DNA of 64,000 nucleotides from Candidatus Komeilibacteria bacterium (GCA_048538275.1 JBLYPW010000001.1:212919-276918), one strand, 5' to 3'. Positions 873 through 20,521 are shown, counted from the first letter of the stretch. Made by a program: numbers and translations. Notes: generated from the sequence alone by a model not told the origin.

Positions 873-1526
873 ATGTCGGAAAATCTAAAATCAGAATCAG
901 AACAACAAGATAATAACAGTGTTGAAGAGGCTGAGGTTAAAGTTGAATCTTTTCAGTCTTTTGTTTTTGAAATGGTAAAGGTATTATTTATTTCTTTATT
1001 AATAATTGTTCCGATCCGGGCTTATGTAGTACAACCTTTTTATGTTGACGGCGCTTCCATGGAGCCAAATTTTTATGACGGGGAATATTTGATCGTGGAC
1101 GAAATAAGTTATCGTTTTCAAAATCCGCAAAGAGGAGATATTGTTGTTTTTCACCCGCCCAGCAATCCTAAAGTTTATTACATAAAAAGAATCATTGGCT
1201 TACCCGGTGAAGTAGTAGATATACAGAATGGTCAGATAAAGGTGTATGAGAAAGATTCTATAGAGCCATTATTTATGGATGAGTCAGAATATTTAACAGC
1301 CGAGTATGCCTTACGAGCGAGTGAAAAATATCATGTCTCATTAGAATATGACGAGTATTATTTATTAGGTGATAATCGGCCCAATAGTTTAGATTCTAGA
1401 CGTTTTGGCCCTATACCAAGAGATCATATTAAGGGCAAGGTGGTTTTACGAGCATTTCCTTTTGATCGTTTTGGTGGTATGACTAGGCCTGATTATAGCA
1501 ATGAAAATAATTTTAGCAATAATTAA
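873..1526 (+). CDS. lepB: signal peptidase I
   Basis: N-terminal TM segment; SPase I boxes GASMEPNF, GDIVVF, YIKRIIGLPGE, YYLLGDNRPNSLDSR. Confidence 0.9.
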   Translation: MSENLKSESEQQDNNSVEEAEVKVESFQSFVFEMVKVLFISLLIIVPIRAYVVQPFYVDGASMEPNFYDGEYLIVDEISYRFQNPQRGDIVVFHPPSNPKVYYIKRIIGLPGEVVDIQNGQIKVYEKDSIEPLFMDESEYLTAEYALRASEKYHVSLEYDEYYLLGDNRPNSLDSRRFGPIPRDHIKGKVVLRAFPFDRFGGMTRPDYSNENNFSNN

Positions 1527-3687: not shown

Positions 3688-5634
3688 ATGCTAAAATTTT
3701 TTGACATGATGAAAAAAAAGAGAACCGCTGTTTTGTTATCTTTATTGATTGCAGCGGTTCTTTTTTTGTGGGCAATGGGTGTGCAGGCGGTCAATGATTT
3801 GGGCTTGAGTACGGCTCAGCAAATTGGTTTGGGCACGACTCCTTTGCCGGATATTGTAGTCAATGTCGTGCATGTGTTTTTGGGATTGCTGGGCTTGTTA
3901 GCGGTCATTTTTGTATTATATGGCGGCTTTGTTTGGATGACGGCCGGTGGCAACCCTGATAAAATAAGTCAAGCAAAAAAGATATTGATTAATACGGTCA
4001 TCGGCATAGTGATTATATTGTCTTCGTATGCTTTGACAGAATTTTTATTTAGACAATTTGGCTGGGTTACTGGATTACAAAATAATGTGGTGAATCAGTC
4101 ACGCGATAACTCTTATTATTATAGTGGTGGCTTGGCCGGCGGTATTATTCGGGCACATTATCCTCAACGTGGCGATGTTGATGTACCGCGCAATGTTGCT
4201 ATTGCCATTACTTTTAAAGAAGCTATTGATCCGACCACCATTATTGGCGACGACGGTAAGATAATTGTTGACAATGTCAGTATTAGCACCTTAGACGGCG
4301 CGGCTCTAACTGATATTAGCGTTAGCACGGTGGATAATTTAACTTTTATATTGCGACCGGATCAGTGGCTGGGCAATGATCAGGCGGCGGTTTGGTATCA
4401 AGTAGGTTTGCTTTCCGGCATTCAAAAAAGCAATGGCGACCCGGCTTTTGGTCCTTTAGGAAATTATAGTTGGCAATTTGCCACTAGCACTGAAGCAGAT
4501 ACGACACCTCCTCAAGTAACGAGTATTACGCCCAGCGCCGATAGTACTGAGCCGCGTAATGTAGCCGTGCAGATTAACTTTAATGAGCCGGTTGATCCTA
4601 CTAGTGCCAGCGGTGATAGTAATAATTTTTCTAATATTATACTTAGTGATATGTCTGATCAAATAGTATCAGGCACTTATACTATAACCAATCAGTACCG
4701 TACCGTAGAATTTTTAACTAATGATTTGTGTGGTCAAAATTCTTGTGGTGATGATGTCTATTGTTTGCCGGCAGACGAATTATTAAACGCTTTGATCAAA
4801 GCCGCCAGCGTGGGTGTCTTACCTTATGACGGCGTGGTGGACATGGCGGGTAATAGTTTAGATGGCAATGCTAATGGTCAAGCGGAAGGATCTTCTACTG
4901 ATGATTATGGCTGGAATTTTAATACCACCAATGACATTGATATTACGGCACCACAAGTTAAAGAAGTTACTCCAGATACTTCAGCCAATGGTATTAGTAC
5001 TCGTGCTAGAGTACGGGCTGATTTTAATAAGCCTATGCTGTTGAGCTCTATTAATGGTGACTCTATGCAAATAGATCAAGGAGTGAATTATTGGATCAAT
5101 AGTACGATTCAGGATAATACTACCATGAGTTATATTAATCACGATGAATTTATTACGCAGACTACTTATCATCCTCGTATTACCAATGCCTGTCGCGATA
5201 TTTACCAAAATTGTTTTAATCCGCCGCAGGGTCCCAATGAATGGCTGATTTCTCCGACGGGCGATTGGGCCTGGATAGATGGTACTACTAGTGGTGATAT
5301 TGCTAGCGATTCATTGGGTACTAGCTTGACCCTAAGCGCTGGTAATAGTAGTGGCGCTTGGGTATCAGCCGCTATGAGTGCTGATGCGCCAGTAGCTGTG
5401 ATGGCTGTTTTTGCTCAGGATTTGTTGGATAATGGTAGTCAGACGCAGATTTTTGTGCGTAGCGCCAATACCATTGCCAATCTAAATAATGCAACCTGGA
5501 TGGCAGTAGGTTATGACGGACAGCTCAATTTGCCTGCGGCGAATTATTGGCAACTCAAAGCAGAATTAAGTAGCGTGGCAGATGATAGCGTGCCTACAAT
5601 TTTTCAAATTAGCCTTAATATTGATAAATCTTAA
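3688..5634 (+). CDS. surface protein: signal peptide, then a T4SS-pilin-like (VirB2/TrbC-type) two-helix module, then three SbsA-type Ig-like (Big_5-like) domains
   Basis: Signal peptide. Hydrophobic hairpin ..HVFLGLLGLLAVIFVLYGGFVWMTAGGNPDKISQAKKILINTVIGIVIILSSYALTEF. Repeated PRNVA(I/V)xIxFxExIDP Ig-like units. Stop/start overlap (TAATG) with the next gene. Confidence 0.8.
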   Translation: MLKFFDMMKKKRTAVLLSLLIAAVLFLWAMGVQAVNDLGLSTAQQIGLGTTPLPDIVVNVVHVFLGLLGLLAVIFVLYGGFVWMTAGGNPDKISQAKKILINTVIGIVIILSSYALTEFLFRQFGWVTGLQNNVVNQSRDNSYYYSGGLAGGIIRAHYPQRGDVDVPRNVAIAITFKEAIDPTTIIGDDGKIIVDNVSISTLDGAALTDISVSTVDNLTFILRPDQWLGNDQAAVWYQVGLLSGIQKSNGDPAFGPLGNYSWQFATSTEADTTPPQVTSITPSADSTEPRNVAVQINFNEPVDPTSASGDSNNFSNIILSDMSDQIVSGTYTITNQYRTVEFLTNDLCGQNSCGDDVYCLPADELLNALIKAASVGVLPYDGVVDMAGNSLDGNANGQAEGSSTDDYGWNFNTTNDIDITAPQVKEVTPDTSANGISTRARVRADFNKPMLLSSINGDSMQIDQGVNYWINSTIQDNTTMSYINHDEFITQTTYHPRITNACRDIYQNCFNPPQGPNEWLISPTGDWAWIDGTTSGDIASDSLGTSLTLSAGNSSGAWVSAAMSADAPVAVMAVFAQDLLDNGSQTQIFVRSANTIANLNNATWMAVGYDGQLNLPAANYWQLKAELSSVADDSVPTIFQISLNIDKS

Positions 5635-8600
5635 TGCGCAAAGCATCGCATAAAAAAATATTTTTTGTTTTCTTGGCTTTGTTATTAATACCAATTATTA
5701 GTTTTGCGCAAGCTAATTTAGGTTTAGATACGGCTGGCAGCATTGGTTTGGGTACAACTGATTTACCGGTAATTATCGTTAATATTATAAGAATATTTTT
5801 GAGTTTATTGGGCTTGATTGCTGTTGGTGTTATTATTTGGGCTGGTTTGCAGTGGATGACAGCCGGTGGCAACCCAGAGCAGGTCGGACGGGCAAAAAAG
5901 TGGATGATTAATGGTTTGATCGGTCTGGTCATAATCATGGCCTCTTTTGGGATTGCTAGTTTTGTTATTAATAATTTAAAACAAGCTACTGGCTTGAGCG
6001 AAGCTACAGGTGATAATAATAGTTCGGGTGGTGGCGGTTTGCCTGGTGGTGGTTTTGTTTTGAGTAGTTGGCAACCAAGTAACAATAGTAGTGATTGGCC
6101 ACGTAATATTATAGTACGAGCTTATTTTAGCGGTGTCATTGATGCCACCACGCTTGATGAGAATGATATCACTTTTATTGACACCACTAGTAATAATAAT
6201 ATTCCTTTTGTTTTAGAGGCCAATGGTAGTCGTTTAGATATAGCGCCACAAAATAGTTGTGCTGTTGATGGCGTTGATTATTGTTTGCCAGCAGATCATG
6301 CTTATCAGGTAAGTATTGTAAATGGATCAATACGTTCTTTAGCTAACCATACTTTACAATGCGGACAAAATTGTCAGACGGTTTTTTCCGTTGGCAATAG
6401 TATTGATAATACTGCTCCCAATTTTGCGCTAGTGCAACCGGTGGCTGATAGTTTAGTAGCGCTTGATTCATTGGTACCGATTTTAGGTCAGCCAAATGAT
6501 AATAGTAGTGTTATTGCAGCGGTGACTTTTTTGGCTAATGATGATGTTGTTCAACCAGTTGGTAGCGATACGGATGGTGAGCCGTGGACAGTTGACTGGG
6601 TAGTGTCTGGCTATAATGCTGGTGAGATATTAAGTTTAAGTGCTACAGCGGAAGATTTGAGTGGCAATGTGGGTTATGCCCCTGATGTGCGGGTTATTGT
6701 GAGGCCGGAGCATTGTTTCAACGGCTATCAAGACGCTGATGAAACCGGTATTGATGTGGGAGGTAGTTGTGGCGCTGCTTTGGGAGAGTCATGCAATGTT
6801 AATAATAGTTGTGGCAATGGTGATCAATTTTGCGCGGAAGGGAGTTGTAGTGAAGTAACCTGTACTTGTGAAGCCAAGCCCATTGTCATGAGCATTACAC
6901 CCGCTGATGGTGCGGTAGGAAATTTAATTACTATTTATGGTAGTGGTTTTGGTCAAGATTTGGGTGTAGTGACTTTTTTGGGTAGTGCAGCTAGTGGCGA
7001 TGAACAGCTTGGTGATTTAAATGTTTGTTTACAAAGCTGGACCAATAATCAGGTTATAGTAGCAGTGCCAAATAATGCGGTTAGTGGGGGGATTAAATTA
7101 ACTACGGCCAGCGGACGTTTTGATACCACTTTGGATGAATTAGGATGGCAAGGAGAATTTGATGTAAATACCGTGGTGCGACCGGGTTTGTGTTCAGTTG
7201 ATCCAACGATTGGACCGGCCTTGTCACTGGCTAGTGTACAAGGTATTAATTTAGGTTCAAGTGCTGACAATCAAAACTTATTTGTAGGTGGTCAGTCGGC
7301 CAATATTGGTACTTGGCAAAATTCAGCAATTGATTTTATAGTTCCAAATCTACTGCCCAGTAGTCAGCCAGTGAGTATTTCTATACAAAATGACCAGCAA
7401 GAAAATAGTAATCCGGTGTATTTTGTGGTGCAGCCAGACATAGTGACACCACATTTATATAGTATTAATCCGGCTGGAGGGCCAGCGGGTCAGTATATTA
7501 CCTTGACGGGTACAAATTTTGGTACAAATCCGAGCGAAGTAAATGTCAAATTTGTGGCCGCTGATAATACTGCCACGGAAGCAGATATAGATTTTCCGGC
7601 AATGTGTGGAGAGCGACAAATTAGTAATACGGAAATGGTGGTAAAGGTGCCAGCGATCGCAGTGGGCGACTATGCCGTGGACGTTCGCCGTTTGGGTAAG
7701 GTGAGTGAGTCCATTGATTTTTCAGTTGTCAGTGGTCAGCCAGGGGCAGGATTGTGTGCTTTATTGCCAGATAATGGACCCAATGGCATTAGCGTGCAGG
7801 TAGTAGGTGATAATTTTTCTAATGATGGAAGTGTCAATTTTTATAATAATCAAACAGCCCAGACTAGCAATTGGCAAGCTAATAGCGTTGACACCGTTGT
7901 ACCGGCTGATGCAGTGAGTGGGCCGGTGAGCATGATGCTGGCAGGACAGGTTAGTAATAGCATAAATTTCTCGGTGGGCACTTGTAGTCCCGGACCGGGC
8001 GAGGAATTGTGTGCTGATGGCAGCTGTCGTCCGGTAGGAGAATGTTTAAATATACCGGCAGATGATGACTATACTTGGTCTTTTACCACGGGCGAGGCGT
8101 GGCCACCCTTCGTTGTTAGTGATTATTGGCCGGCTTGTAATAGTGCTTGTACAAATGCTGATGTAGCAGCGGTTTTTTCCAATCCATTGGATACAAATAC
8201 AATTATGAACAATGTTGAGATTTGGGATTGTGGTGAGGATGACATGTGTCTATCATCTGAGCAAATTGATTTGACCAATGGCAATGTTTGGGGCGGTAAT
8301 TATGATGCGAGTAACAATGTATTGCATTTTTTACCTTTGGGCATTAGCGCTAATCACAATTATCGCGTAGTTATGACCATGGGTAATGATGGTATAAAAA
8401 ATGCCGTAGGTGAAAATTTAACTAATCCTAATTTTGATAAAAATGGTGACGGAATAGATGATAGCTTTGCTTGGATTTTTAGTACTGGCGAGCAAGCATG
8501 TGTTCCAGCGCGCGCTGAGGTTTTGCCATCTCCTATTAAGTTTACTCGTTTAGAACAAAGTGAAACTGTCTACCCTTATCCTTATTCGGCGGCTGACAGT

Positions 8601-11600
8601 TGTAGCGCAACAGGACAACCTTTGTTGGCCAGTGATTATAGTTGGGCATGGAGTCTAAGCTCAGCGCTGCCAATAACTTTAGCAGTGGGAAGTAATTATG
8701 CCATTGTTCGCCCTCGGGCTGATGGCCAATCAAGGGTATTGGCAAGGATAAATGATTATGGTGTTATTGGTAGAAGCTTTGTTACCGTGGATATGGACAT
8801 TCCTGTTATTACCGCTATTAGTCCGGATAATGGTACGACAAATACTAATGTAAAAACTTTGGTTACCATTAGCGGTTATAATTTTGGCGAACATCAGGGT
8901 AGTAGTTATGTGGAAGTGGGCGGTACACGGGCGCAGTTGGCTGATTGTGGTATACCTTGGAGTGATACGCAAATTATTATAGAATTACCAGCCACTACGC
9001 AGAGTGGTGATCATATTAAAGTCATAAAAACTACTGGTGAGGATATTTCAGACCAGGCCTTTACGGTGAATAATATTATTAGACCGGCATTGTGTGGTAT
9101 TTCTCCCAATTATGGCACGGACGGTGATAGCGTGACTTTATCAGGCTATAATTTTGGCGATACCCAAGTTGATAGTATGGTAATGTTTGATCAGCTGGGA
9201 GTGGATACAATCAATAGTTGGTCTAATCAGTCCATTCGTACTATCGTACCGCCAGGTGCTAGTACGGGTCCGGTTTATGTTAATGTTCTTGGTAATAATT
9301 CTAATGCCATTAATTTTTCTTTGGAGCCATTTATAACCAAGCTTGATCCGAACAATGGCCCGGTCAATAGTTATGTTACTATTTATGGTGGAAATTTTGG
9401 TGATACTAGAGGTAATGGTCGGGTGATGATTGGTGGTCAATTAGCGAACTTAGCCCCTTGTGTTGATAATTGGAACAATACCACTATTATCGTTCAGGTA
9501 CCGGAAGGTCTTGATCTGGGCAAGTGGCCGGTACAAATATTTACAGCTAATAATATTCCCACCAATACGGTAGATTTTACAGTCAATGAAAATCCTTTGA
9601 ATCCACTATTGTGCCAGCTGGATCCAAATTGGGCGAGTAATAATGAAAGTATAAAATTGAAAGGTGATAATTTTGGTGACGCTCCCTATTTTGCCGGAGC
9701 AGAAAATGTAGACATGGCAGTGGGCGCTGATTATAGTAATATTATGGACCGTTCATGTATTTATAATAATGGTACTTATATTGGTTCTTGCAGTAATCTA
9801 TGGGTGGACTATCAGTTTAATTTTAATGCGGATGGTTATTATAATGCTTGGGCGGAGACCAGTAATAATGGTATAGATCTTACCGATCAAGGAATCTATC
9901 ATAATGTAGTTGTTTATCTTGACGGTCAATATATAGGTCAGTTCAGCAATGTAGCATCAAACCCAGATCACAATTTAGGTAGTGTGGGTTTGGGTTGGGT
10001 GAGCGCCGGTAATCATACGGTGAGATATTATTGGAATAATGATTGGTGTGGTGGTTGTGGTGATGGCATAGGCGATTCTAATATTCTATTTCATAAGGTT
10101 GGTATAGATGAGGGCGCTCCGATGAGCTATGCTTTATTTACTGATAATTATGCTGCTGAGACAAATAGCTGGCAAAACACAGAAATGAGCGCCAATATCA
10201 ATGAGTCGGTATTATCAGGTCCAGTTAGTTTGGTTAAAGAGGTGGTGACTGGTCGACAGTGCGCTGGTTTTCATATTGGCGGTTGGTGTCCGGGTGGAGT
10301 TTATGATGATATTACTACTACGACACAAAGTAATAGCTTGTCCTTTATCAAGGGCTGTGTGATTGGTACTACTTCTTCGCGAGTAGAAGGTTATATTCCC
10401 ACGGTGGCGGAAAATAGTGAGGCGGTGGGAACTTTAGCTACAGATGGTAGATTTTTATATGGTAAGAGTTGGGGTGGCTATGATAGGCACGATCGGTTGA
10501 TAACAAGAATTGGCAGTGGTTATCAGTATACTGTTCTTGGCAAAGTTTATAGTCATTTAGCTTATGTTGCGGACAGCTTAACTATGACTTATTATCCGGA
10601 TGGATATATATATAATGGTTATTCTACCAATGGGCATAATTTGCAACGGATCAATGCGGGAACTGGTTCCACTGATATGAGTTTAAATATTCCTGATGGT
10701 TTGCTGAATCGTAATACGGGGGAGGTTTATTCAGGAGTAAGAAGTGATTATTTAATTACTTCTGATGGTACATATATTTATAATTTAGCTTTTAGTACTC
10801 ATGCCTGCCCCCAAAATTATGGCAACCGTTGTTATGATGGATTCAAAGTTAGGGTTTTTGATCCAATGGATGATATGAGCTTGGTAAGAGAATGGACATC
10901 TGGTACAGATTCATTTTATACCGACGGTATTATCGCGGATGGTAAATATGTTTATGCCTTTGAATGGAGTGGCCAGCACAGAGTACGAAAAATGGATGCC
11001 ATCACCGGAGAGTTTGTGGCAGAATGGATATCCGAACAAGGCGGTCCAACTGGTGAGGGTAATGATATTATTTCCGGTCAATATGATTGGGTCAATGATA
11101 CAGTATGGATGGGTGATTTAGTTGATCATAGTCGCAATCCTGGCCCGGCTTATATTTATCAATATAATAGTTGTCATTTTGAAGACGGTGTGCTATTTCC
11201 AAGGTGCGGTGATGGTATATTGCAACAGAATGGCGAACCGGGTGATAGTTATGATTATACTTCTGCTCACAGTGGCAATATCAATTCTTATTATGAGCAA
11301 TGTGACGATGGTAATCTTATTAACGGGGATGGTTGTAGCTCGTGGTGTGCTCTTGAATCAGTGCCAGTCAGTAGTAATTTTATTATTACTGATCATGAGC
11401 CTGCAGTGGACGCTCCTGCCAATACCACCATCCGTTTGTTTTTCAGTGATAATGTTGCGACCGGTTCATTGGCCGATCGTGATATTACGATTACAGCCGG
11501 CGAAAATAATTTAAGTTGGAATGCATCAGTGAATAATAATGTCATTACTCTATTACCAACCCAAGTTTGTGGCGCCCCACATACAGACTTACGATGCTGG

Positions 11601-14600
11601 CCTACTAATCAGCGATTACAAGTCGTGGTAGCTGAGGGTAGTATTAAAAATATTCATAATCAGGGACTTAGTTGTAATAATGGTAAATGCGAATTTCATA
11701 TACAGACAACTGATCAAGTGGATGTGATAGCGCCACAAATCAGCTTGTTGACACCTACACAGGGTCAACAAGTACCGGTGGGCAGTTCAATAGCAGTGCA
11801 GGCTCAGGCTACCGATGATACTGACGTGGCTTATGTTGATTTTGCTATTGATGGTCAGTCGGTTGGTATTGTTAACCAAACGGGTATTTTTTCTGGTGAT
11901 CAATCTTATACTGTTTTGAATTATTTCCAGACTTTGCGGAGTGTTGATATTAACAATGACGGTTATGAAGATTTGCTAGCTTTTTCCAATAATGAGAGAG
12001 GATTTTCCGTGTTATTGAATAATGGTTGGGGAGGTTATATAGCTAAAGATTATAATGTGGGGGCTTATTATTATTCTTATGATTCAGGTTTTGGCATATG
12101 GGATGTAAATAATGATGGTTATTTAGACGTATTGCTTGGTAATAATAATTATGCCGGAAAGTTTTATATATTTTTGAATAATGGTGACGGTACTTTTGCC
12201 TCTCGTCAGACCTATGATTCGGCCGGACATTATCCGCGCGCCATAGCGACTGGCGATCTCAACGGCGATGGTTATAATGACATTGCAGTAGCGAATGATA
12301 GGGGGGATGGTAATAATATAGAATTAGTGATATTTGCCGGCGACGCTCAAGGTCATTGGTACTTGGTCAAGCAATTGAATATTGCTGATGATTATTCTGT
12401 TACCGGTTTAGCTATCAGCGATTATGATAATGACGGTAAAGATGATATCGCTGTATTGCAACGTTATCATAGTAGTAATAATTTACATATTTATTGGGGG
12501 CAAGAAAATTTAGCGAGCGATTGGCAAAAACTAGCTATGAATTCAGGTGGTTATTCTTATCAATTAGTTAGTAGTGATATAGATAATAACGGCAATGAAG
12601 ATTTGTTAATCTTGATGTACCATAGTGGGGATGATTATAGCTATTATATACAAGTGTTATATAATCAAGACAATAGAATATTTAGTCAGAGTAGTTTGCC
12701 TCAGAGTGACGGACATCACTACTATGTTACCAACTCTTTATTGATAAAAGACACAGATAATGATGATTATTCTGAGATATTTGCTAGAGAGGGTAATGTA
12801 ATAGTGCGTTGGGATAATAATGGCGGCGCAATTAGCGCACCAGCGGTATTGTCTAATGTACCTAGCTCAATATATACATTAACTGATACAAATAATGATA
12901 ATAGATTTGATATTATAAGCCGCAATAGTAACACGGATGCCATAGTGCTACTAAATAATGGTGACGGTACTTATGGTAGTAATAATATAGTTAGTTTTCC
13001 TTATGCTATGAAAAGTGTAGTGGCTAATGATTTGGATGGTGATGGCCTACCGGAGTTGATTATGCCGTATGTCAATAGTATTAGTAGGGGAGTAACAATT
13101 TATAGAACAGGCGCGGCTGGTTATCAAGAACAATCTAATTTTGATATCTTTTATGATCTGACGGCAAGAGCTACTGGTCGTTTATATGGCGCCTTACCTG
13201 ATAATAGTGGAAGTTATTATGGCTGGTGGGGCGGAGATTGGCATGCTGGCACGGGCGTTGGTAGCGGTCCGGTTTATGCCCAAGTGAGTGGTCAAAGTAC
13301 AGATTCAACCATAGTCAGTGGTAATTTAACACCCTCTCCTTATGATGGCGTCTATGCTGATTTTGATGTTGACTTGGGAGGTGGATTTAGCGTGCGTAGC
13401 ACTGGTTGGGTTTATGGTTATCCTAGTTTGTATCCTTATAGCGCAGCAGTTGGTAATTTTAATGGAGATGCTTATCAAGATATTATATTGCGTGATCGGA
13501 GTGGCTCTGGTAGCCATTATGATGCTCGTGTTTTAGCTGGTGGCTCAAATGGATGGCAAGAACAAGCGAATTATAATAACACTACTGGCGCATCTGGCTA
13601 TGATTGGCGTACGGCTACCAGAGGCATTTATCAACAGACCCAGGTAGTTGATATGAACAGTGATAATTCTGATGATTTTCTATTATTCAATGCAACAGGA
13701 GCGTTTAGTAGTTTTATTAATGATGGCACGGGTAAATTTACCGCAATCAATTATGAAGATTCTGATACTAATGATGCTTATCGTTTTGTGATGGGTGATT
13801 TAACTGGGGATAATATGCCTGATTTAGCTTATATTCAATACGAGTGGCAATCCAATAGTACAAACTTGTATATTGTAGAAAATAAAAATGGAAATTTAGA
13901 CTTTGCCCAACGCAGAGTTTTGACGTCACCTGATTATATAAATGGTTTGAGCATTGCCGATTTTAATAATGACGGCACAAATGATGTTATGGTGGTTTCG
14001 CAGTCAGCCGGTACGCTGTTTTATGACCGTAGTAGCGGCCAATGGCGGTCATATACTGCCGATATCAATGCTCCTAAATTGGCCAAAGCAGGCTTAGTGG
14101 ATAATGATGGTCTATTGGATATAGTAGTAGTAACAGATGGCGGCGGCGTACAAGTTTATTATAATCAAGGTGATTTTACCTTCACTAGCGGTGAATCTTT
14201 TACTTTGTTTAGTTATTACTATGGACCGGCTATCAATGATGACGCTTTGGCCATTGACGATTTTAATAATGATGGCCAGCAGGATATAGTTTTGAGCAGG
14301 TCATATGGCAGCGACTTGGCTTTTGTTTATCAAAAAGCCAACCCTGATTTATATAGTTATGCTTGGGATACTACCGGACTGATAGTAGGATCGCAACACA
14401 CAGTGCAGGCTACGGCTTATGATCTTGATAGCCATAGTACTAGTAGTCAATTAGTAACCGTAACTATTGGCTTGCAGGGAGATCATTGTACTGACGGTCT
14501 TATCAATTTTGACGAAAATGGTTTAGATTGCGGTGGCGCCGATTGTAGCGCCTGCCAGAATAATATTAGTGAGATTATTGTTAGTCCGCAAGAAGCTAAT

Positions 14601-17096
14601 GTAAATGTTGGTGAACAGATATTATTTAATGCCCAAGTCATAGATAATGATGGCAATCTTTTGTCAGATGCGATGGTTGATTGGACCAGCAATAGTTCTG
14701 ACAGTATTGGTATTAGTAGCGCGCTAGATGGTGGAATTTTAGTTAGTGGACAAATAGAAGGAGAGGCTATTATTACGGCCAGTTTAGGTGATATTAGCGA
14801 CGATGCCTTGGTTCACGTTGTTGTCCCTGTTAGTCCATGTGGTGATGGCATTGTTGATAGTAATATTGGTGAGCAATGCGATTTTGCGGCTGATGGTACG
14901 GTAATTATACCGGATAATTTAGCTTGTACCAGTTTTCCTGATTATGCTGCCGGTAGTTTGGGTTGTACGAGTCAATGCGAGTTGGACTTCAATCAGTGCG
15001 TGCCTGGCATACCCACATCAGGAGCTTGTGTAAATACAGAAATATCCGCTACGTTTGACAGTCCTATGCTTGCCTCTTCATTTACGCTTGATAAAGTACA
15101 TCTTTATAAACTATTAAGTAATGATGATTGGCAAGAAATACCTATCACTTTTAGTTTGGAAGACCGGCCAATTAGTGGCGAGCCAGAACAAACAATATTA
15201 TATATTCATCCCCTTGATGATCTAGATCCTTTTACCGTTTATAGAGCGGTAGTGTCTGGGGGTAGCGGTGGAGTTATGGATATGGGAGGAAGTATTTTAC
15301 CAAATGATTATGCGTGGCAATTTGATACTGGTGAAACTTTTTGCTTTATTGATCGCGTTGCTATTGAGCCAGATAGTTATGAATTTAATTCAGTGGATGA
15401 ACAAATTAACTTTATAGTGCATGCTTATGACAACGAAAATAATGTCATCAACGGTAATTATAATTGGCAGCTAGAAGGCAATAGCGAGTTAGTGAATATT
15501 GGCAATAATAATGGGCAAATTATTACTGTACAGCCAACTGGTATCGGCAATGGCGCTTTGAGTTTACGTGCCTTGGTTGATAGTGGAGCTCAGGGAAATG
15601 GTGAGGCAGTGGCGCCAATTGATATTTTTATGTGCGGTGCTCCTTGGCAATATAGTAATGACAGCTATAATTTTGCTGTTAAATATTGTCGTGGTGATGG
15701 GCCTAATATGATCTATAATAGTGGTTTTGAGCAAGATAATAACAATGATATTTATCCGGATGGTTGGGAAATGCCTATTGGCAATGCCCTGGTTAGTGAT
15801 TATACTGCTAGATTGGATGAGGACGGTAGCGGCAAGGTCTTTACTATCATTCAAAACAATACTGCTACGATTAGTCATGATCGCGTTTTGGTGCGTCAGT
15901 ATGTGCCGGTCAAGCCACAAACTACTTATAGCATCAATTTTAAAATTAAAGCCGAAAATATAAATAATAGACCGGTGGAAATATATGAGCTGGCGGATAG
16001 AAACGGTGCCAGGCTGGGTGATCAGCCACTTTCTTCTGGTAGCATTGGTAGCTATGATTGGGAGACTAATAGCTTAATAATTCTTACTAATGCCGATACC
16101 AATTATTTGGAAGTGGGCTTGGTATTGTATATGAGTCGTGATAATAATTTATCACAGATTTGGTTTGATGATATGCAATTGGAGCTTGGTAATCAAGCCA
16201 GTAGCTATCAGGCTAGTAATTTATTGCCGGATTTGGTAGTCAGTGAAGTAGGAAGTGGTTTTGATGATCCAAATTTACTAACGACTATATTATTGAGTCA
16301 ACAAGTTTATGGCAGTGATGACGCTATTGGCATGCGGGTCTATAGTAATTTTGATCATCTTGACCCTCTGAGCTGGTATCAAAACAATATAGTGACCCAA
16401 GGACAGCCCCAGTCCATTATAGTCGGAGGTTATAGCGCTTTGCAGGAAGGGCGCAGCACTTATGTTAATGCCGCAAATATAGCTGGCGCTGATGTATATA
16501 CCAATATTTATCTTTTATCTTATACTCAGGGAGCTGGTAATGATACGCAAAATATGTTCACGCAAATTTATAATAATTGGTCTTTTAATACTAATTTAAG
16601 TTCCGTGGCTTTGCGGCAAAGATTAGTGAACGATACTTTACGCTGGGAAGGTTTAAATATATTGGATAACTCACTGCGGGAGTATTATGATAAATATGGC
16701 TTTTATCCTAAATTATTGTCTGGCACTTATCAAGTAGGTAATAGTGTATCGGTTTGGGATTCTTGGCAATCAACATTAGCCACTGCTTTGGGTATAGTCG
16801 CACCGATTGACCCCATCAATAGTCATAGTATTTGTCCTGCCGGGTACGACTCTGTGACTTGTTGGAATCCTGAGCAGCAAGATTATGTTTGCCCGTTAGG
16901 TTCTCATATTTATCAGTATCATGCTTTATCTTCTGGACAACATTTTGAATTGAATAGCAATTTTGAGTATGGCGGGGTTATCTGGCGGGGGAGTTTTCAG
17001 TTGCCAGTTGACATGAGCGAGGAGTGCGACAATATCATTTGGAGTGATCAGGATATTGACAGTAATGAGGCACAAGATGGCATACGAGGCATATAA
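5634..17096 (+). CDS. giant (3820 aa) surface adhesin-like protein whose N-terminal module is a paralog of the 3688-5634 product
   Basis: The architecture, in order: signal peptide; pilin-like module (..WMTAGGNPEQVGRAKKWMINGLIGLVIIM..); Gly linker; Ig-like domains; EGF-like Cys clusters; about 8 IPT/TIG-like units (P..x.I.P..G..G..(I/V)T(I/L)xGxNFG); a propeller-like region; Cys-rich CGDGI..EQCDDGNLINGDGCSSWC repeats; about 15 FG-GAP/VCBS-like DxNxDGxxD repeats; two Big_2-like domains; a CBM-like C-terminal domain. It is a single uninterrupted ORF. Confidence 0.85.
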   Translation: MRKASHKKIFFVFLALLLIPIISFAQANLGLDTAGSIGLGTTDLPVIIVNIIRIFLSLLGLIAVGVIIWAGLQWMTAGGNPEQVGRAKKWMINGLIGLVIIMASFGIASFVINNLKQATGLSEATGDNNSSGGGGLPGGGFVLSSWQPSNNSSDWPRNIIVRAYFSGVIDATTLDENDITFIDTTSNNNIPFVLEANGSRLDIAPQNSCAVDGVDYCLPADHAYQVSIVNGSIRSLANHTLQCGQNCQTVFSVGNSIDNTAPNFALVQPVADSLVALDSLVPILGQPNDNSSVIAAVTFLANDDVVQPVGSDTDGEPWTVDWVVSGYNAGEILSLSATAEDLSGNVGYAPDVRVIVRPEHCFNGYQDADETGIDVGGSCGAALGESCNVNNSCGNGDQFCAEGSCSEVTCTCEAKPIVMSITPADGAVGNLITIYGSGFGQDLGVVTFLGSAASGDEQLGDLNVCLQSWTNNQVIVAVPNNAVSGGIKLTTASGRFDTTLDELGWQGEFDVNTVVRPGLCSVDPTIGPALSLASVQGINLGSSADNQNLFVGGQSANIGTWQNSAIDFIVPNLLPSSQPVSISIQNDQQENSNPVYFVVQPDIVTPHLYSINPAGGPAGQYITLTGTNFGTNPSEVNVKFVAADNTATEADIDFPAMCGERQISNTEMVVKVPAIAVGDYAVDVRRLGKVSESIDFSVVSGQPGAGLCALLPDNGPNGISVQVVGDNFSNDGSVNFYNNQTAQTSNWQANSVDTVVPADAVSGPVSMMLAGQVSNSINFSVGTCSPGPGEELCADGSCRPVGECLNIPADDDYTWSFTTGEAWPPFVVSDYWPACNSACTNADVAAVFSNPLDTNTIMNNVEIWDCGEDDMCLSSEQIDLTNGNVWGGNYDASNNVLHFLPLGISANHNYRVVMTMGNDGIKNAVGENLTNPNFDKNGDGIDDSFAWIFSTGEQACVPARAEVLPSPIKFTRLEQSETVYPYPYSAADSCSATGQPLLASDYSWAWSLSSALPITLAVGSNYAIVRPRADGQSRVLARINDYGVIGRSFVTVDMDIPVITAISPDNGTTNTNVKTLVTISGYNFGEHQGSSYVEVGGTRAQLADCGIPWSDTQIIIELPATTQSGDHIKVIKTTGEDISDQAFTVNNIIRPALCGISPNYGTDGDSVTLSGYNFGDTQVDSMVMFDQLGVDTINSWSNQSIRTIVPPGASTGPVYVNVLGNNSNAINFSLEPFITKLDPNNGPVNSYVTIYGGNFGDTRGNGRVMIGGQLANLAPCVDNWNNTTIIVQVPEGLDLGKWPVQIFTANNIPTNTVDFTVNENPLNPLLCQLDPNWASNNESIKLKGDNFGDAPYFAGAENVDMAVGADYSNIMDRSCIYNNGTYIGSCSNLWVDYQFNFNADGYYNAWAETSNNGIDLTDQGIYHNVVVYLDGQYIGQFSNVASNPDHNLGSVGLGWVSAGNHTVRYYWNNDWCGGCGDGIGDSNILFHKVGIDEGAPMSYALFTDNYAAETNSWQNTEMSANINESVLSGPVSLVKEVVTGRQCAGFHIGGWCPGGVYDDITTTTQSNSLSFIKGCVIGTTSSRVEGYIPTVAENSEAVGTLATDGRFLYGKSWGGYDRHDRLITRIGSGYQYTVLGKVYSHLAYVADSLTMTYYPDGYIYNGYSTNGHNLQRINAGTGSTDMSLNIPDGLLNRNTGEVYSGVRSDYLITSDGTYIYNLAFSTHACPQNYGNRCYDGFKVRVFDPMDDMSLVREWTSGTDSFYTDGIIADGKYVYAFEWSGQHRVRKMDAITGEFVAEWISEQGGPTGEGNDIISGQYDWVNDTVWMGDLVDHSRNPGPAYIYQYNSCHFEDGVLFPRCGDGILQQNGEPGDSYDYTSAHSGNINSYYEQCDDGNLINGDGCSSWCALESVPVSSNFIITDHEPAVDAPANTTIRLFFSDNVATGSLADRDITITAGENNLSWNASVNNNVITLLPTQVCGAPHTDLRCWPTNQRLQVVVAEGSIKNIHNQGLSCNNGKCEFHIQTTDQVDVIAPQISLLTPTQGQQVPVGSSIAVQAQATDDTDVAYVDFAIDGQSVGIVNQTGIFSGDQSYTVLNYFQTLRSVDINNDGYEDLLAFSNNERGFSVLLNNGWGGYIAKDYNVGAYYYSYDSGFGIWDVNNDGYLDVLLGNNNYAGKFYIFLNNGDGTFASRQTYDSAGHYPRAIATGDLNGDGYNDIAVANDRGDGNNIELVIFAGDAQGHWYLVKQLNIADDYSVTGLAISDYDNDGKDDIAVLQRYHSSNNLHIYWGQENLASDWQKLAMNSGGYSYQLVSSDIDNNGNEDLLILMYHSGDDYSYYIQVLYNQDNRIFSQSSLPQSDGHHYYVTNSLLIKDTDNDDYSEIFAREGNVIVRWDNNGGAISAPAVLSNVPSSIYTLTDTNNDNRFDIISRNSNTDAIVLLNNGDGTYGSNNIVSFPYAMKSVVANDLDGDGLPELIMPYVNSISRGVTIYRTGAAGYQEQSNFDIFYDLTARATGRLYGALPDNSGSYYGWWGGDWHAGTGVGSGPVYAQVSGQSTDSTIVSGNLTPSPYDGVYADFDVDLGGGFSVRSTGWVYGYPSLYPYSAAVGNFNGDAYQDIILRDRSGSGSHYDARVLAGGSNGWQEQANYNNTTGASGYDWRTATRGIYQQTQVVDMNSDNSDDFLLFNATGAFSSFINDGTGKFTAINYEDSDTNDAYRFVMGDLTGDNMPDLAYIQYEWQSNSTNLYIVENKNGNLDFAQRRVLTSPDYINGLSIADFNNDGTNDVMVVSQSAGTLFYDRSSGQWRSYTADINAPKLAKAGLVDNDGLLDIVVVTDGGGVQVYYNQGDFTFTSGESFTLFSYYYGPAINDDALAIDDFNNDGQQDIVLSRSYGSDLAFVYQKANPDLYSYAWDTTGLIVGSQHTVQATAYDLDSHSTSSQLVTVTIGLQGDHCTDGLINFDENGLDCGGADCSACQNNISEIIVSPQEANVNVGEQILFNAQVIDNDGNLLSDAMVDWTSNSSDSIGISSALDGGILVSGQIEGEAIITASLGDISDDALVHVVVPVSPCGDGIVDSNIGEQCDFAADGTVIIPDNLACTSFPDYAAGSLGCTSQCELDFNQCVPGIPTSGACVNTEISATFDSPMLASSFTLDKVHLYKLLSNDDWQEIPITFSLEDRPISGEPEQTILYIHPLDDLDPFTVYRAVVSGGSGGVMDMGGSILPNDYAWQFDTGETFCFIDRVAIEPDSYEFNSVDEQINFIVHAYDNENNVINGNYNWQLEGNSELVNIGNNNGQIITVQPTGIGNGALSLRALVDSGAQGNGEAVAPIDIFMCGAPWQYSNDSYNFAVKYCRGDGPNMIYNSGFEQDNNNDIYPDGWEMPIGNALVSDYTARLDEDGSGKVFTIIQNNTATISHDRVLVRQYVPVKPQTTYSINFKIKAENINNRPVEIYELADRNGARLGDQPLSSGSIGSYDWETNSLIILTNADTNYLEVGLVLYMSRDNNLSQIWFDDMQLELGNQASSYQASNLLPDLVVSEVGSGFDDPNLLTTILLSQQVYGSDDAIGMRVYSNFDHLDPLSWYQNNIVTQGQPQSIIVGGYSALQEGRSTYVNAANIAGADVYTNIYLLSYTQGAGNDTQNMFTQIYNNWSFNTNLSSVALRQRLVNDTLRWEGLNILDNSLREYYDKYGFYPKLLSGTYQVGNSVSVWDSWQSTLATALGIVAPIDPINSHSICPAGYDSVTCWNPEQQDYVCPLGSHIYQYHALSSGQHFELNSNFEYGGVIWRGSFQLPVDMSEECDNIIWSDQDIDSNEAQDGIRGI

Positions 17097-19700: not shown

Positions 19701-19722
19701 TAAATATATAAATCATAAATTT

Positions 19723-20517
19723 ATGTTTGAAGATTTTGATGATAAAATAAAAGATAATAAACCGCCTACTTCACCGGAGATTCCTAGGCAACCAGATAGT
19801 ATCCCCGTGGCAAATAATCAATCAGCGGAAAAAGAGCCGGAAGATATTTTTGCCAATGTTGAAAAGGATCAAATGTCTAAACCAACGCAGCCACCCAGGC
19901 CAGCGCAAGCGCCAGGCCAGCCAAAAGATATTGGGCCAGCTAAGCCTTTACAAGCCATGCCAGCGGCGGATGGCGCCAGCCAGACTGGTCATAAACGTTG
20001 GTTATGGGCAGTCATAGGATTGGTGGTGATTGTGGCGATCGGTATTTGGTGGTGGAGCGCTTATAGCACGCCTGATAATTATAGTGATTTGGTCAATAAC
20101 CCCCTTGATAACCAGATGAATAACCAGATGAATAACCAGATTAATAATGCCCCTACAGATTTGGTGAATAATCAGCCGGTTGATATACCGACTGATAACC
20201 AGTTGGATAATAATTCTGGAGAGATTATAAATCAGCCAATAGATAATGTTGATCAGCCCAGCGCTAATCCAGATATCAATATTGATACAGATGGTGATGG
20301 TTTGACAGATAAGCAAGAGGCCACCATTGGTACCGATCCTAGTCAAGCAGATAGTGATGCGGATGGTTTGTTTGATAAGGAAGAGGTGGTAACTTATAAT
20401 ACCGATCCTTTGAACCCGGATACAGATGGTGATGGTTATGCGGATGGCTTGGAAGTGCAAAGTGGCTATAATCCAGCCGGTGAGGGTAAGTTATTAAATA
20501 TTCCTACCGATCAATAA
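19723..20517 (+). CDS. single-pass membrane protein with a Pro-rich N-terminus, N/Q tandem repeats and thrombospondin-type-3-like Ca-binding repeats
   Basis: TM segment WLWAVIGLVVIVAIGIWWW; NNQMNNQMNNQINN; DTDGDGLTDKQE..TDPSQADSDADGLFDKEE..TDPLNPDTDGDGYADGLE. Start chosen at the internal ATG at 19723; the ORF-track start at 19660 overlaps the previous gene. Confidence 0.65.
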   Translation: MFEDFDDKIKDNKPPTSPEIPRQPDSIPVANNQSAEKEPEDIFANVEKDQMSKPTQPPRPAQAPGQPKDIGPAKPLQAMPAADGASQTGHKRWLWAVIGLVVIVAIGIWWWSAYSTPDNYSDLVNNPLDNQMNNQMNNQINNAPTDLVNNQPVDIPTDNQLDNNSGEIINQPIDNVDQPSANPDINIDTDGDGLTDKQEATIGTDPSQADSDADGLFDKEEVVTYNTDPLNPDTDGDGYADGLEVQSGYNPAGEGKLLNIPTDQ

Positions 20518-20521
20518 TTTT

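What the first reader, a model, noticed from the sequence alone, without database searches (positions are those of the whole stretch)
3688..5990. A conserved N-terminal module resembling VirB2/TrbC-type conjugative pilins, attached to two very different-sized surface proteins
Both proteins begin with a signal peptide followed by about 75 aa of shared pattern: L(P)x(I)(V)VNxxxxFLxLLGLxAVxxxxxxGxxWMTAGGNPxxxxxAKKxxINxxIGxVIIxxSxxxxxF. This is two hydrophobic helices separated by a short polar turn containing an invariant WMTAGGNP and a basic AKK. That is the topology of VirB2/TrbC-family T4SS pilins, yet here it is fused to 500-3700 aa of extracellular adhesin-like domains. The module may polymerise or anchor the huge ectodomains in the envelope.
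Basis: inference. Interest (0 to 1): 0.8.

Follow-up and report, generated by a model that had tools for sequence, protein, structure and literature searches.

The report
Pilin-like anchor on giant surface proteins
Two neighbouring genes of an uncultured ultra-small (Patescibacteria) bacterium encode a 648-residue and a 3,820-residue surface protein, each starting with a module of the family that forms conjugation-type (VirB2) pili; hundreds of related species keep the same gene pair, so it may supply the attachment proteins not yet identified for these bacteria.

Summary
ORF A (3688-5634, 648 aa) and ORF B (5634-17096, 3,820 aa) each start with a signal peptide and a shared ~90-aa helix-loop-helix module. 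The modules are 45/89 identical; 20,000 shuffles gave at most 20.

The module belongs to Pfam PF18895 T4SS_pilin (44 and 42 bits against a cut-off of 26.6). Its closest relatives are stand-alone 110-150 aa Patescibacterial pilins (36-57% identity). A profile-profile comparison with genuine Agrobacterium-type VirB2 gives 92% probability.

Structure comparison says nothing either way, because a helical hairpin matches thousands of folds.

The fusion is a large, conserved family. At least 536 species-representative genomes encode a relative. In 71 of 80 loci the ~570-aa gene is followed directly by a giant second module-bearing gene. The pair sits in a fixed housekeeping setting (LepB-HisRS-S21-YqeY … TSP3 proteins-YbeY-FtsA-FtsZ) and never next to VirB4, VirB6 or VirD4.

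Within a genome the two modules, but not the adjacent ectodomains, evolve in concert. Some loci carry a small pilin gene between the two.

Most likely these are modular VirB2-family pilins that display Ig-like stalks and variable heads. Whether they polymerise or only anchor the ectodomains is untested. This is a new variant of a known kind.

The parts
3688..5634 (+). ORF A, 648 aa: signal peptide, VirB2-like pilin module, Gly-rich linker, three Ig-like (Big_5) domains and a poorly modelled C-terminal domain. NCBI MFW0837578.1 ('Ig-like domain-containing protein') starts at 3706.
3688..3789 (+). Signal peptide of A (aa 1-34). It has a KKKR n-region, a hydrophobic core and a VQA|V signal-peptidase-I-type site.
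   Evidence: Read from the sequence; hydropathy; helix 2-29 in the AF2 model. Cleavage is inferred, not shown.
3790..4062 (+). Pilin module of A (aa 35-125): LGL..IGLG segment, helix 1 (aa ~53-84), WMTAGGNPDKISQAKK loop, helix 2 (aa ~90-125). The Pfam PF18895 match covers aa 51-119 (nt 3838-4044).
   Evidence: (49.5 bits for the module alone)
4063..5631 (+). Ectodomain of A: disordered linker (aa 126-143), tandem Ig-like domains (aa ~150-515, pLDDT > 90) and a C-terminal domain (aa ~520-648, low confidence).
5634..17096 (+). ORF B, 3,820 aa: signal peptide, VirB2-like pilin module and a ~3,700-aa ectodomain (TIG x6, FG-GAP x7, Big_5, Big_7, Cys-rich repeats; 66 Cys). There is no C-terminal anchor. 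NCBI MFW0837579.1 ('IPT/TIG domain-containing protein').
5634..5714 (+). Signal peptide of B (aa 1-27), with an AQA|N site.
5715..5987 (+). Pilin module of B (aa 28-118). The Pfam PF18895 match covers aa 43-111 (nt 5760-5966).
17169..19700 (+). ORF C, 843 aa: signal peptide, DUF5667 and Cys-rich DUF4215/myxo_disulf repeats. A DUF5667/DUF4215 gene follows the giant gene in the other Komeilibacteria genome examined (L001). It is not part of the widely conserved core of the cluster.
19660..20517 (+). ORF D, single-pass membrane protein with thrombospondin-type-3 (calcium-binding) repeats. It is conserved directly downstream of the giant gene in related loci. The true start is probably an internal ATG.
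20522..22117 (+). ORF E, 531-aa single-pass membrane protein, conserved after ORF D and before ybeY. It has only weak TSP3 and T2SS-G-like signals.
873..1526 (+). Signal peptidase I (LepB). It heads the conserved upstream block LepB-HisRS-S21-YqeY (62-68 of 80 loci) and is the candidate processing enzyme for both propilin-like proteins.
   Evidence: The role in processing is inferred.

Best explanation
ORF A and ORF B are modular pilins of the VirB2 superfamily.

Shown here:
- The ~90-aa N-terminal module is a true member of the Patescibacterial 'T4SS_pilin' family and a remote homologue of VirB2/TrbC.
- It is a signal peptide followed by a helix-loop-helix hairpin.
- It is fused through a Gly-rich linker to Ig-like stalks and variable distal domains.
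- The A + B gene pair is a core, syntenic and probably translationally coupled feature of class ABY1 and related Parcubacteria.

Inferred topology: Sec/YidC inserts the protein and signal peptidase I cuts after the AxA site. Helix 1 then runs from outside to inside, the basic loop (..GGNP....AKK) faces the cytoplasm, and helix 2 runs back out. This puts the whole ectodomain on the cell surface, which is the known membrane topology of VirB2 propilin.

Inferred mechanism: the module is not a passive anchor. Through it, A and B associate with each other and with the small stand-alone pilins. The result would be either a membrane platform or a short VirB2-type fibre, in which A is the conserved subunit and B the fast-diversifying adhesin that contacts a host or substrate.

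My probabilities: module homologous to VirB2-type pilins, ~0.9; ectodomains surface-exposed and adhesive, ~0.75; module-mediated co-assembly rather than mere anchoring, ~0.5; dependence on the VirB4/VirB6 machinery, ~0.3.
For: Homology
- PF18895 scores 44.2 and 42.4 bits against a cut-off of 26.6.
- The module alone retrieves only stand-alone 82-154-aa PF18895 pilins, at 36-57% identity.
- PF04956 TrbC scores E = 1.5e-4 for the module; 23 of 44 family members hit it.
- The Mycoplasma-ICE pilin-like family NF045849 scores E = 3.5e-9.
- Agrobacterium VirB2 is the top, though non-significant, PDB sequence hit.
- hhalign against the VirB2 family gives 92.4% probability, E = 5e-7.

Topology
- Each protein has only a signal peptide and two hydrophobic helices.
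- AF2 models a hairpin with pLDDT ~90.
- There is no LPXTG and no prepilin motif.

Family and synteny
- 297 hits share the PF18895 + Big_5 architecture.
- 541 50%-identity clusters score E <= 1e-30 against the first 300 aa of A; the 150 listed are 336-2,209 aa with the match at their N-terminus.
- At least 536 species-representative genomes encode a relative.
- A is followed by a giant module-bearing gene in 71 of 80 loci.
- The neighbours are fixed.

Arguments that the module is more than an anchor
- Column-by-column conservation in fused and stand-alone modules correlates at r = 0.82 and gives the same consensus, loop included.
- Same-genome A-B module identity is 0.595, against 0.460 across genomes. 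The own B ranks first in 31 of 67 genomes.
- The next 200 aa of ectodomain show no such effect.
- A small pilin gene lies between A and B in L043, L049, L080 and L082.

Context from the literature
- VirB2-like pilins are known and essential in cultured Saccharibacteria, yet 'no adhesins such as PrgB were detected' in Patescibacteria (PMC12102498, PMC10633639).
- Three of the four cluster-bearing genomes listed in that paper's Table S1 have VirB4.
Against: - No VirB4, VirB6 or VirD4 gene lies in the 64-kb window. Gene tables or protein searches of the related loci showed none within about 10 kb of the cluster either: L001-L006 carry called genes with Pfam hits, while L009-L088 were checked only against the window's own proteins. 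The setting is housekeeping and cell division, which suits a constitutive envelope component better than a secretion-system accessory.
- One listed genome with the cluster lacks VirB4, although it is a 619-kb, probably incomplete MAG.
- Fold searches cannot separate the hairpin from thousands of others.
- The within-genome matching of modules is partly a DNA-level effect. Identical codons at identical residues reach 0.505, against a codon-usage baseline of 0.412. Neutral gene conversion limited to the only similar stretch could produce this without any co-assembly.
- The set of stand-alone pilins used for the conservation comparison was chosen by similarity to this module, which inflates r.
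- A 3,700-aa ectodomain on every subunit is sterically incompatible with a homopolymeric VirB2-type pilus (inference).
- No pilus of this type has yet been seen experimentally in Patescibacteria.
Confidence: 0.55

Rival explanations
1. Passive anchor. An ancestral pilin hairpin was recruited only as a cleavable-signal-peptide plus two-TM membrane anchor for Sec-exported surface proteins. It does not polymerise, does not interact with small pilins and needs no T4SS. A and B stay in the membrane as independent, tethered adhesins or envelope proteins.
For: - No T4SS gene was found near the cluster in any locus examined, and the chromosomal setting is conserved housekeeping.
- Neither protein has another anchor, so the hairpin must serve at least as the anchor.
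- The size of the giant ectodomain argues against packing into a pilus (inference).
- The codon-level signal suggests gene conversion could explain the matched modules.
Against: - A plain anchor should not keep the same loop motif and Gly pattern as free pilins.
- It should not remain 50-57% identical to them.
- Module-limited concerted evolution in 67 genomes and a small pilin gene inserted between A and B in several lineages are unexplained by this view, though not excluded by it.
Confidence: 0.35
2. Envelope scaffold. Together with the downstream TSP3-repeat proteins, the pair forms a constitutive cell-envelope structure, such as an S-layer-like coat or a calcium-stabilised surface lattice, linked to growth and division rather than to host attachment. 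The pilin module would provide the membrane attachment.
For: - The cluster has an invariant position between LepB-HisRS-S21-YqeY and YbeY-FtsA-FtsZ.
- Calcium-binding TSP3-repeat membrane proteins are co-conserved.
- ORF A orthologues are well conserved across genomes, with a mean local score of 282 over the first 200 ectodomain residues.
Against: - The giant partner varies strongly in length (about 1,600 to more than 3,500 aa) and in domain content (TIG, FG-GAP, fn3, Cys-rich repeats, beta-propellers). This is typical of diversifying adhesins rather than lattice proteins.
- Gene order next to ftsA/ftsZ may only reflect the general synteny of small genomes.
Confidence: 0.15
3. No relation to pilins. 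The shared N-terminus is only a signal peptide plus generic hydrophobic helices, and the Pfam name is misleading.
For: - The PDB sequence hit to VirB2 is not significant (E = 0.29).
- PF04956 and NF045849 are both below their curated cut-offs.
Against: - PF18895 is well above its cut-off.
- hhalign to VirB2 gives 92.4% probability with both helices in register.
- The nearest relatives are small pilins that lie in multi-gene pilin arrays. The same gene class sits inside the essential T4SS locus of Saccharibacteria (PMC10633639, PMC12102498).
- VirB2 ranks first among 177,635 PDB sequences.
Confidence: 0.04

Closest known systems
Stand-alone VirB2-like pilins of Patescibacteria (Pfam PF18895 T4SS_pilin). 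Arrays of 2-11 genes; essential within the T4SS locus of Southlakia epibionticum (Wang et al. 2023, PMC10633639; Quinonero-Coronel et al. 2025, PMC12102498).
   Same: Same family above the curated cut-off. Identity is 36-57%. They share the signal peptide, the LGL..GLG segment, both helices and the W-M-T-[AS]-G-G-N / A-K-K loop.
   Different: Those proteins are 110-150 aa and end right after helix 2. Here helix 2 continues into 520 or 3,700 aa of ectodomain. Those genes lie in pilin arrays, in some lineages next to virB4. Here the genes form a fixed pair in a housekeeping neighbourhood. None of the three papers on Patescibacterial T4SSs that I searched (PMC12102498, PMC12857230, PMC10633639) mentions such fusions; the only 'fused' in the first concerns VirB3-VirB4.
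VirB2/TrbC conjugative pilins of diderm T4SSs (Pfam PF04956; Agrobacterium T-pilin, PDB 8cue/8fai/8exh).
   Same: Signal peptide plus two hydrophobic helices joined by a short loop. hhalign gives 92.4% probability with the helices in register. It is the top-ranked PDB sequence match. The predicted topology, both ends outside and the loop inside, is that established for VirB2 (from my own knowledge).
   Different: The module scores below the PF04956 cut-off (22.4 against 27.9 bits). Its loop is 8 residues longer. The host is a monoderm. No adjacent VirB genes were found. VirB2 is a small protein, cyclised in Agrobacterium, with no appended domains.
Mbov_0395/MMCAP2_0565 pilin-like conjugal transfer proteins of Mycoplasma ICEs (NCBIfam NF045849).
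   Same: A monoderm VirB2-like hairpin. The module matches 63 of the model's 80 positions at E = 3.5e-9.
   Different: The score is below the family cut-off (36.2 against 40 bits). Those are ~80-aa proteins of mobile elements, not fusion proteins of the core genome.
Modular type IV pilins, i.e. a pilin module plus a C-terminal functional module, such as Streptococcus sanguinis PilB/PilC or the tip minor pilins CofB/TcpB (from my own knowledge, not tested here).
   Same: The same design principle: a polymerisation or membrane module carries an adhesive module, so that the adhesin becomes part of a fibre.
   Different: An unrelated pilin superfamily with a class III signal peptide and prepilin peptidase. 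No prepilin motif is present here, and assembly would use a different machinery.
Surface adhesins of Gram-positive conjugation systems (e.g. PrgB), anchored by LPXTG and sortase.
   Same: Large, repetitive Ig-like surface proteins proposed to mediate cell-cell contact for a monoderm T4SS.
   Different: There is no LPXTG motif or C-terminal anchor. Anchoring is N-terminal through a pilin hairpin. PrgB homologues were reported absent from Patescibacteria (PMC12102498).
Pam pili of Saccharimonadia and Microgenomatia (bioRxiv 10.64898/2026.03.03.709456).
   Same: CPR-specific surface filaments built from Ig-like domains and exported by Sec.
   Different: Pam pilins assemble by donor-strand exchange with membrane-anchored chaperones. 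That paper does not mention VirB2 or T4SS.

Membership tests
Pfam PF18895 T4SS_pilin (Patescibacterial VirB2-like pilins) | Profile HMM score above the curated gathering threshold | tested here: met
   44.2 bits (A) and 42.4 bits (B) against 26.6; 49.5 bits for the isolated module.
Pfam PF18895 T4SS_pilin (Patescibacterial VirB2-like pilins) | Cleavable signal peptide followed by two hydrophobic helices joined by a short polar, basic loop | tested here: met
   Hydropathy shows a signal peptide and two segments only. AF2 helices span 53-84 and 90-128 with pLDDT ~90. AxA sites were read from the sequence. Cleavage itself was not shown.
Pfam PF18895 T4SS_pilin (Patescibacterial VirB2-like pilins) | Small stand-alone protein (~110-150 aa) ending after helix 2 | tested here: not met
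   648 and 3,820 aa. All 77 nearest module relatives are 82-154 aa.
Pfam PF18895 T4SS_pilin (Patescibacterial VirB2-like pilins) | Encoded in a pilin array and/or near virB4 and other T4SS genes | tested here: not met
   No T4SS gene in the window. None was seen within about 10 kb in L001-L006 (gene tables with Pfam hits). L009-L088 were compared only with the window's own proteins and the module HMM, not with T4SS profiles. The rest of the genome could not be read. Komeilibacteria genomes listed in PMC12102498 Table S1 mostly have VirB4.
Pfam PF18895 T4SS_pilin (Patescibacterial VirB2-like pilins) | Polymerises into, or is required for, a T4SS pilus or channel | not testable with these tools
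   No multimer prediction or experiment was available. The only indirect evidence is module-limited concerted evolution and small pilin genes inside the cluster in some loci.
Pfam PF04956 TrbC/VirB2 pilin | Profile HMM score above the gathering threshold | tested here: not met
   22.4 bits against 27.9 (E = 1.5e-4) for the module. 23 of 44 related pilins match at E <= 1, the best at 1.8e-8.
Pfam PF04956 TrbC/VirB2 pilin | Remote homology detectable by profile-profile comparison, with both helices aligned | tested here: met
   hhalign of A1 against A3 (26 Agrobacterium-type VirB2): probability 92.4%, E = 5.2e-7, 57 columns.
Pfam PF04956 TrbC/VirB2 pilin | Pilin fold distinguishable from other helical hairpins | tested here: inconclusive
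NCBIfam NF045849 Mbov_0395 family pilin-like conjugal transfer protein | Score above the curated cut-off | tested here: not met
   36.2 bits (module), 31.2 (A) and 25.6 (B) against 40.
Type IV pilins / T2SS pseudopilins | Class III signal peptide with the G|[FM]TLIE prepilin-peptidase motif | tested here: not met
   No such motif in A or B. No N_methyl or pilin Pfam hit at the N-terminus.
Sortase-anchored Gram-positive adhesins (PrgB-like) | C-terminal LPXTG motif followed by a hydrophobic segment and a basic tail | tested here: not met
   No C-terminal hydrophobic segment. No LPXTG near either C-terminus.

The most novel reading that the evidence does not exclude
The A-B pair and the small pilins would co-polymerise into a VirB2-type fibre that carries covalently attached Ig-like stalks and giant adhesins. 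These would be the first 'modular' pilins of the conjugative (VirB2) superfamily. They would be encoded in the core genome rather than in a T4SS locus, would possibly assemble without VirB4, and would supply the adhesins so far missing from the essential Patescibacterial T4SS/pilus system.
Probability: 0.3. Interest if true: 0.85.

Novelty: new variant of a known kind. Interest (0 to 1): 0.62.

Why it matters
Patescibacteria may make up a large share of bacterial diversity, and many depend on attachment to other cells. Their VirB2-like pilins are essential in the one genetically tractable species. What those pilins build is unknown, and no adhesins have been linked to the system.

A deeply conserved pair of pilin-module fusion proteins (at least 536 species) gives concrete candidates for the attachment organelle. 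It provides a testable link between pilin modules and surface display. It also shows that the VirB2 fold can carry very large cargo domains. In public annotation the two proteins are named only 'Ig-like' and 'IPT/TIG domain-containing', so a survey that relies on product names would miss the pilin module.

Tried and rejected
- **PDB sequence search with the family profile.** VirB2 ranked first, but at E = 0.29. I treated this as a lead and replaced it with the hhalign test.
- **Exact look-up of the source contig.** Searches returned nothing on record, so the rest of the 487-kb contig could not be checked for VirB4, VirB6 or VirD4.
- **Search for further module copies or T4SS genes in the window.** None found.
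- **Possible pilin-head-like domain shared by the C-terminus of B and ORF E.** BLASTP found no significant similarity, so I dropped it.
- **Promoter and terminator scan of the cluster.** Terminator-like sites were at background level, promoter-like sites were modestly above the shuffles, and no operon boundary could be drawn.
- **Pam pilus preprint.** It describes a different, donor-strand-exchange system and is not related to this module.
- **Concerted evolution as proof of co-assembly.** Rejected as proof, because codon identity shows that at least part of the signal is DNA-level exchange.

Full report
**1. What is in the sequence**

The region holds two same-strand ORFs. ORF A is 3688..5634 (648 aa) and ORF B is 5634..17096 (3,820 aa). 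The TAA stop of A overlaps the ATG of B (TAATG), which suggests coupled translation.

Both translations start with a basic n-region, a hydrophobic signal sequence and an AxA site: VQA|VND in A and AQA|NLG in B. A shared module follows. Aligned without gaps, 45 of 89 positions are identical, whereas 20,000 shuffles never gave more than 20. BLASTP of the full proteins gives E = 9e-32 over 305 residues, so the homology runs on into the first Ig-like domain.

A hydropathy scan finds only the signal peptide and two further hydrophobic segments in each protein. There is nothing at the C-terminus, and no LPXTG or prepilin motif. A six-frame HMM search finds just these two copies in the 64-kb window. 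The finding's coordinates cover all of A and only the first 119 codons of B.

**2. What the module is**

- Both proteins pass the curated threshold of Pfam PF18895 'T4SS_pilin': 44.2 and 42.4 bits against 26.6, over aa 51-119 and 43-111.
- Searching 5.8 billion proteins with the module alone returned 77 hits. All are stand-alone proteins of 82-154 aa with PF18895, at 36-57% identity. Several also carry a PF04956 TrbC/VirB2 hit, and two are named 'pilin' by NCBI.
- The isolated module hits PF04956 at E = 1.5e-4, below the cut-off. Of 44 aligned family members, 23 hit it, the best at 1.8e-8.
- NCBIfam's Mycoplasma-ICE 'pilin-like conjugal transfer protein' model matches at E = 3.5e-9, just under its cut-off.
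- A family profile searched against all PDB sequences ranks Agrobacterium VirB2 first, but not significantly (E = 0.29).
- To test this lead I collected 26 Agrobacterium-type VirB2 proteins and ran hhalign. It gave 92.4% probability, E = 5.2e-7, over 57 columns. Both helices are in register and the Patescibacterial loop is 8 residues longer.
- AlphaFold2 models the module as a helical hairpin (helices 24-56 and 61-99 of the excised module; pLDDT ~90 in the helices). In full-length A the hairpin spans helices 53-84 and 90-128.

Homology to VirB2-type pilins thus rests on sequence profiles, and it is well supported.

**3. The rest of the proteins**

After a disordered Gly-rich linker (aa 126-143), A has three confidently modelled Ig-like domains (aa ~150-515, pLDDT > 90) and a poorly modelled C-terminal domain. 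The Ig-like part resembles the tandem bacterial Ig domains of LdtMt2, and those of titin and cadherins.

B carries TIG x6, FG-GAP x7, Big_5, Big_7 and Cys-rich repeats, with 66 cysteines.

Orthologues of A in other Komeilibacteria replace the C-terminal domain with beta-propeller-type domains (NHL/SGL/Vgb_lyase). This combination of a conserved stalk and variable heads is typical of adhesins (inference).

**4. How widespread it is, and where**

The window comes from a Candidatus Komeilibacteria MAG. A and B are MFW0837578.1 and MFW0837579.1 on a 487-kb contig, named only 'Ig-like' and 'IPT/TIG domain-containing protein'.

- Full-length A finds 297 proteins, nearly all 525-1,000 aa with PF18895 + Big_5.
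- The first 300 aa of A find 541 50%-identity clusters at E <= 1e-30 among 1.84 billion representatives. The best 150 listed are 336-2,209 aa with a colinear N-terminal match.
- All 266 long hits carry the module at the extreme N-terminus.
Among those whose record title names a lineage are Komeili-, Falkow-, Uhr- and Magasanikbacteria and Paceibacter. Those listed in PMC12102498 Table S1 belong to class ABY1.
- In 71 of 80 loci the A-type gene is followed directly, on the same strand, by a second module-bearing ORF. Most of these have 1,800 to more than 3,400 aa, and many are cut by the end of the locus.
- The flanks are fixed. LepB-HisRS-S21-YqeY lies upstream in 62-68 of 80 loci. TSP3-repeat protein(s), an ORF E-like protein, YbeY, FtsA and FtsZ lie downstream wherever the flank reaches that far.
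- No VirB4, VirB6 or VirD4 gene lies in the window. None was seen in the gene tables of L001-L006. The 80 species-representative loci were not scanned with T4SS profiles, only with the module HMM and the window's own proteins.
- The nearest stand-alone pilins lie in arrays of 4-10 pilin genes. Such arrays are described in the literature (PMC12102498).

**5. Evidence on mechanism**

(a) Per-column conservation in fused modules and in stand-alone pilins correlates at r = 0.82. The consensus is the same (LGFLG..AV...YGGF.WMT[AS]GGNEEK...AKKI...VIGL.II), including the loop. One caveat applies: the stand-alone set was selected by similarity to this module.

(b) Across 67 genomes, the A and B modules of the same genome are 59.5% identical on average. 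A-B pairs from different genomes are 46.0% identical, the same as A-A pairs across genomes (46.3%). The own B is the closest of all B modules in 31 of 67 genomes.

The first 200 ectodomain residues behave as ordinary orthologues. The mean local score is 282 for A-A, 142 for B-B and only 53-59 for A-B, and the own B has a median rank of 27. The module alone therefore evolves in concert.

Part of this is DNA-level exchange. Identical codons at identical residues reach 0.505, against a codon-usage baseline of 0.412 and 0.349 across genomes. The signal is compatible with selection for matching modules, but it does not prove it.

(c) In L043, L049, L080 and L082 a complete small pilin gene (123-136 aa) lies between A and B.

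(d) The topology follows from the sequence. After signal-peptide cleavage the N-terminus is outside. Helix 1 enters the membrane, the Lys-rich loop obeys the positive-inside rule, and helix 2 exits and acts as the export signal for the ectodomain. This is the established membrane topology of VirB2 propilin (from my own knowledge).

**6. Interpretation**

I conclude that A and B are modular VirB2-family pilins: a pilin hairpin that carries surface-exposed Ig-like stalks and variable heads, maintained as a core gene pair.

The most likely mechanism is that the modules associate with each other and with the small pilins, forming either a membrane platform or a short fibre. A would be the conserved partner and B the diversifying adhesin.

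The main rival is that the hairpin has become a passive anchor with no polymerisation and no link to the T4SS. The housekeeping gene context and the size of B favour that view. The retained pilin-specific conservation, the module-limited concerted evolution and the intercalated small pilins argue against it.

A third reading is an S-layer-like envelope scaffold formed with the TSP3 proteins. It fits the synteny but not the variability of B.

The view that the module is unrelated to pilins is essentially excluded.

**7. Comparison with what is known**

Stand-alone VirB2-like pilins of Patescibacteria are described, and they are essential in Southlakia epibionticum (PMC10633639; PMC12102498; review PMC12857230). 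Text searches of those papers found no mention of such fusions, and the only 'fused' in PMC12102498 concerns VirB3-VirB4. PMC12102498 states that no PrgB-like adhesins were detected. Combined full-text searches found nothing further.

The domain combination is visible in automatic annotation. One JGI product name reads 'Bacterial Ig-like domain/Type IV secretion system pilin'. The building blocks are therefore known, while the conserved fused pair, its synteny and the behaviour of its module are not described in the literature I searched. The recently reported Pam pili are a different, donor-strand-exchange system.

I rate this a new variant of a known kind, with interest of about 0.6.

**8. 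Limits**

- The rest of the source genome could not be inspected for T4SS genes.
- No multimer modelling was possible.
- Signal-peptide cleavage, surface exposure, adhesion and oligomerisation are all inferred.
- Of four cluster-bearing genomes listed in PMC12102498 Table S1, three have VirB4 and one (a 619-kb MAG) does not. This is too few to decide co-occurrence.

Noticed in passing
L043 11731-12129; L049 11716-12123; L080 8735-9247; L082 7065-7439: In several Uhrbacteria-like genomes a complete stand-alone pilin gene (123-136 aa) sits between the ~600-aa and the giant module-bearing genes. It is 49-54% identical to the module of its own giant neighbour where that could be measured.
   Followed up: partly
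L007 309-5686 and L008 7280-11906: The stand-alone pilins closest to the window's module lie in arrays of 4-10 pilin genes. Both arrays are flanked by an SBP_bac_1 extracellular solute-binding-protein gene, and no VirB4 lies within 10 kb.
   Followed up: no
window 17169-22117: Three further envelope genes follow the giant gene: ORF C (DUF5667 plus Cys-rich DUF4215/myxo_disulf repeats), ORF D (single TM plus calcium-binding TSP3 repeats) and ORF E (531 aa, single TM, weak TSP3 and T2SS-G-like signals). D- and E-like genes are conserved in this position before ybeY-ftsA-ftsZ in related loci.
   Followed up: partly
window ~16630-16700 (C-terminus of ORF B) and ~20850-20940 (ORF E): Both carry a short R..L..L..YY...(G/K).YP-type motif, which from memory resembles the start of the globular head of CPR type IV pilin-like proteins. 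BLASTP between the two regions is not significant.
   Followed up: partly
window 36133-36696: A DsbB-family disulfide-bond-formation gene lies in the same window. The giant ORF B has 66 cysteines and ORF C has Cys-rich repeats, so oxidative folding outside the cell is probably needed.
   Followed up: no
window 29866-31371: A ComEC competence channel gene (Competence + DUF4131) lies 13 kb downstream. DprA lies upstream of the cluster in related loci.
   Followed up: no
L017 11694-17168; L054 11833-22446: Two separate module matches fall within one long open frame of the giant gene. This may be a small pilin gene read through in frame, or an internal duplication.
   Followed up: no
L011, L014, L017, L020-L023 and many others (record titles): Many species-representative records that carry this Patescibacteria-type cluster and its synteny are titled 'uncultured Gammaproteobacteria bacterium'. 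These look like mislabelled or placeholder taxonomy in the public records.
   Followed up: no
window 4690-4770 (ORF A aa ~335-361) and 6220-6290 (ORF B aa ~198-220): A conserved Cys-containing motif (..C[GA]QNSC....(V)YCLP.., with nearly invariant C348, C353 and C359 in the A family) recurs in the Ig-like domains of both proteins. It suggests a disulfide-stapled loop specific to this Big_5 subtype.
   Followed up: no
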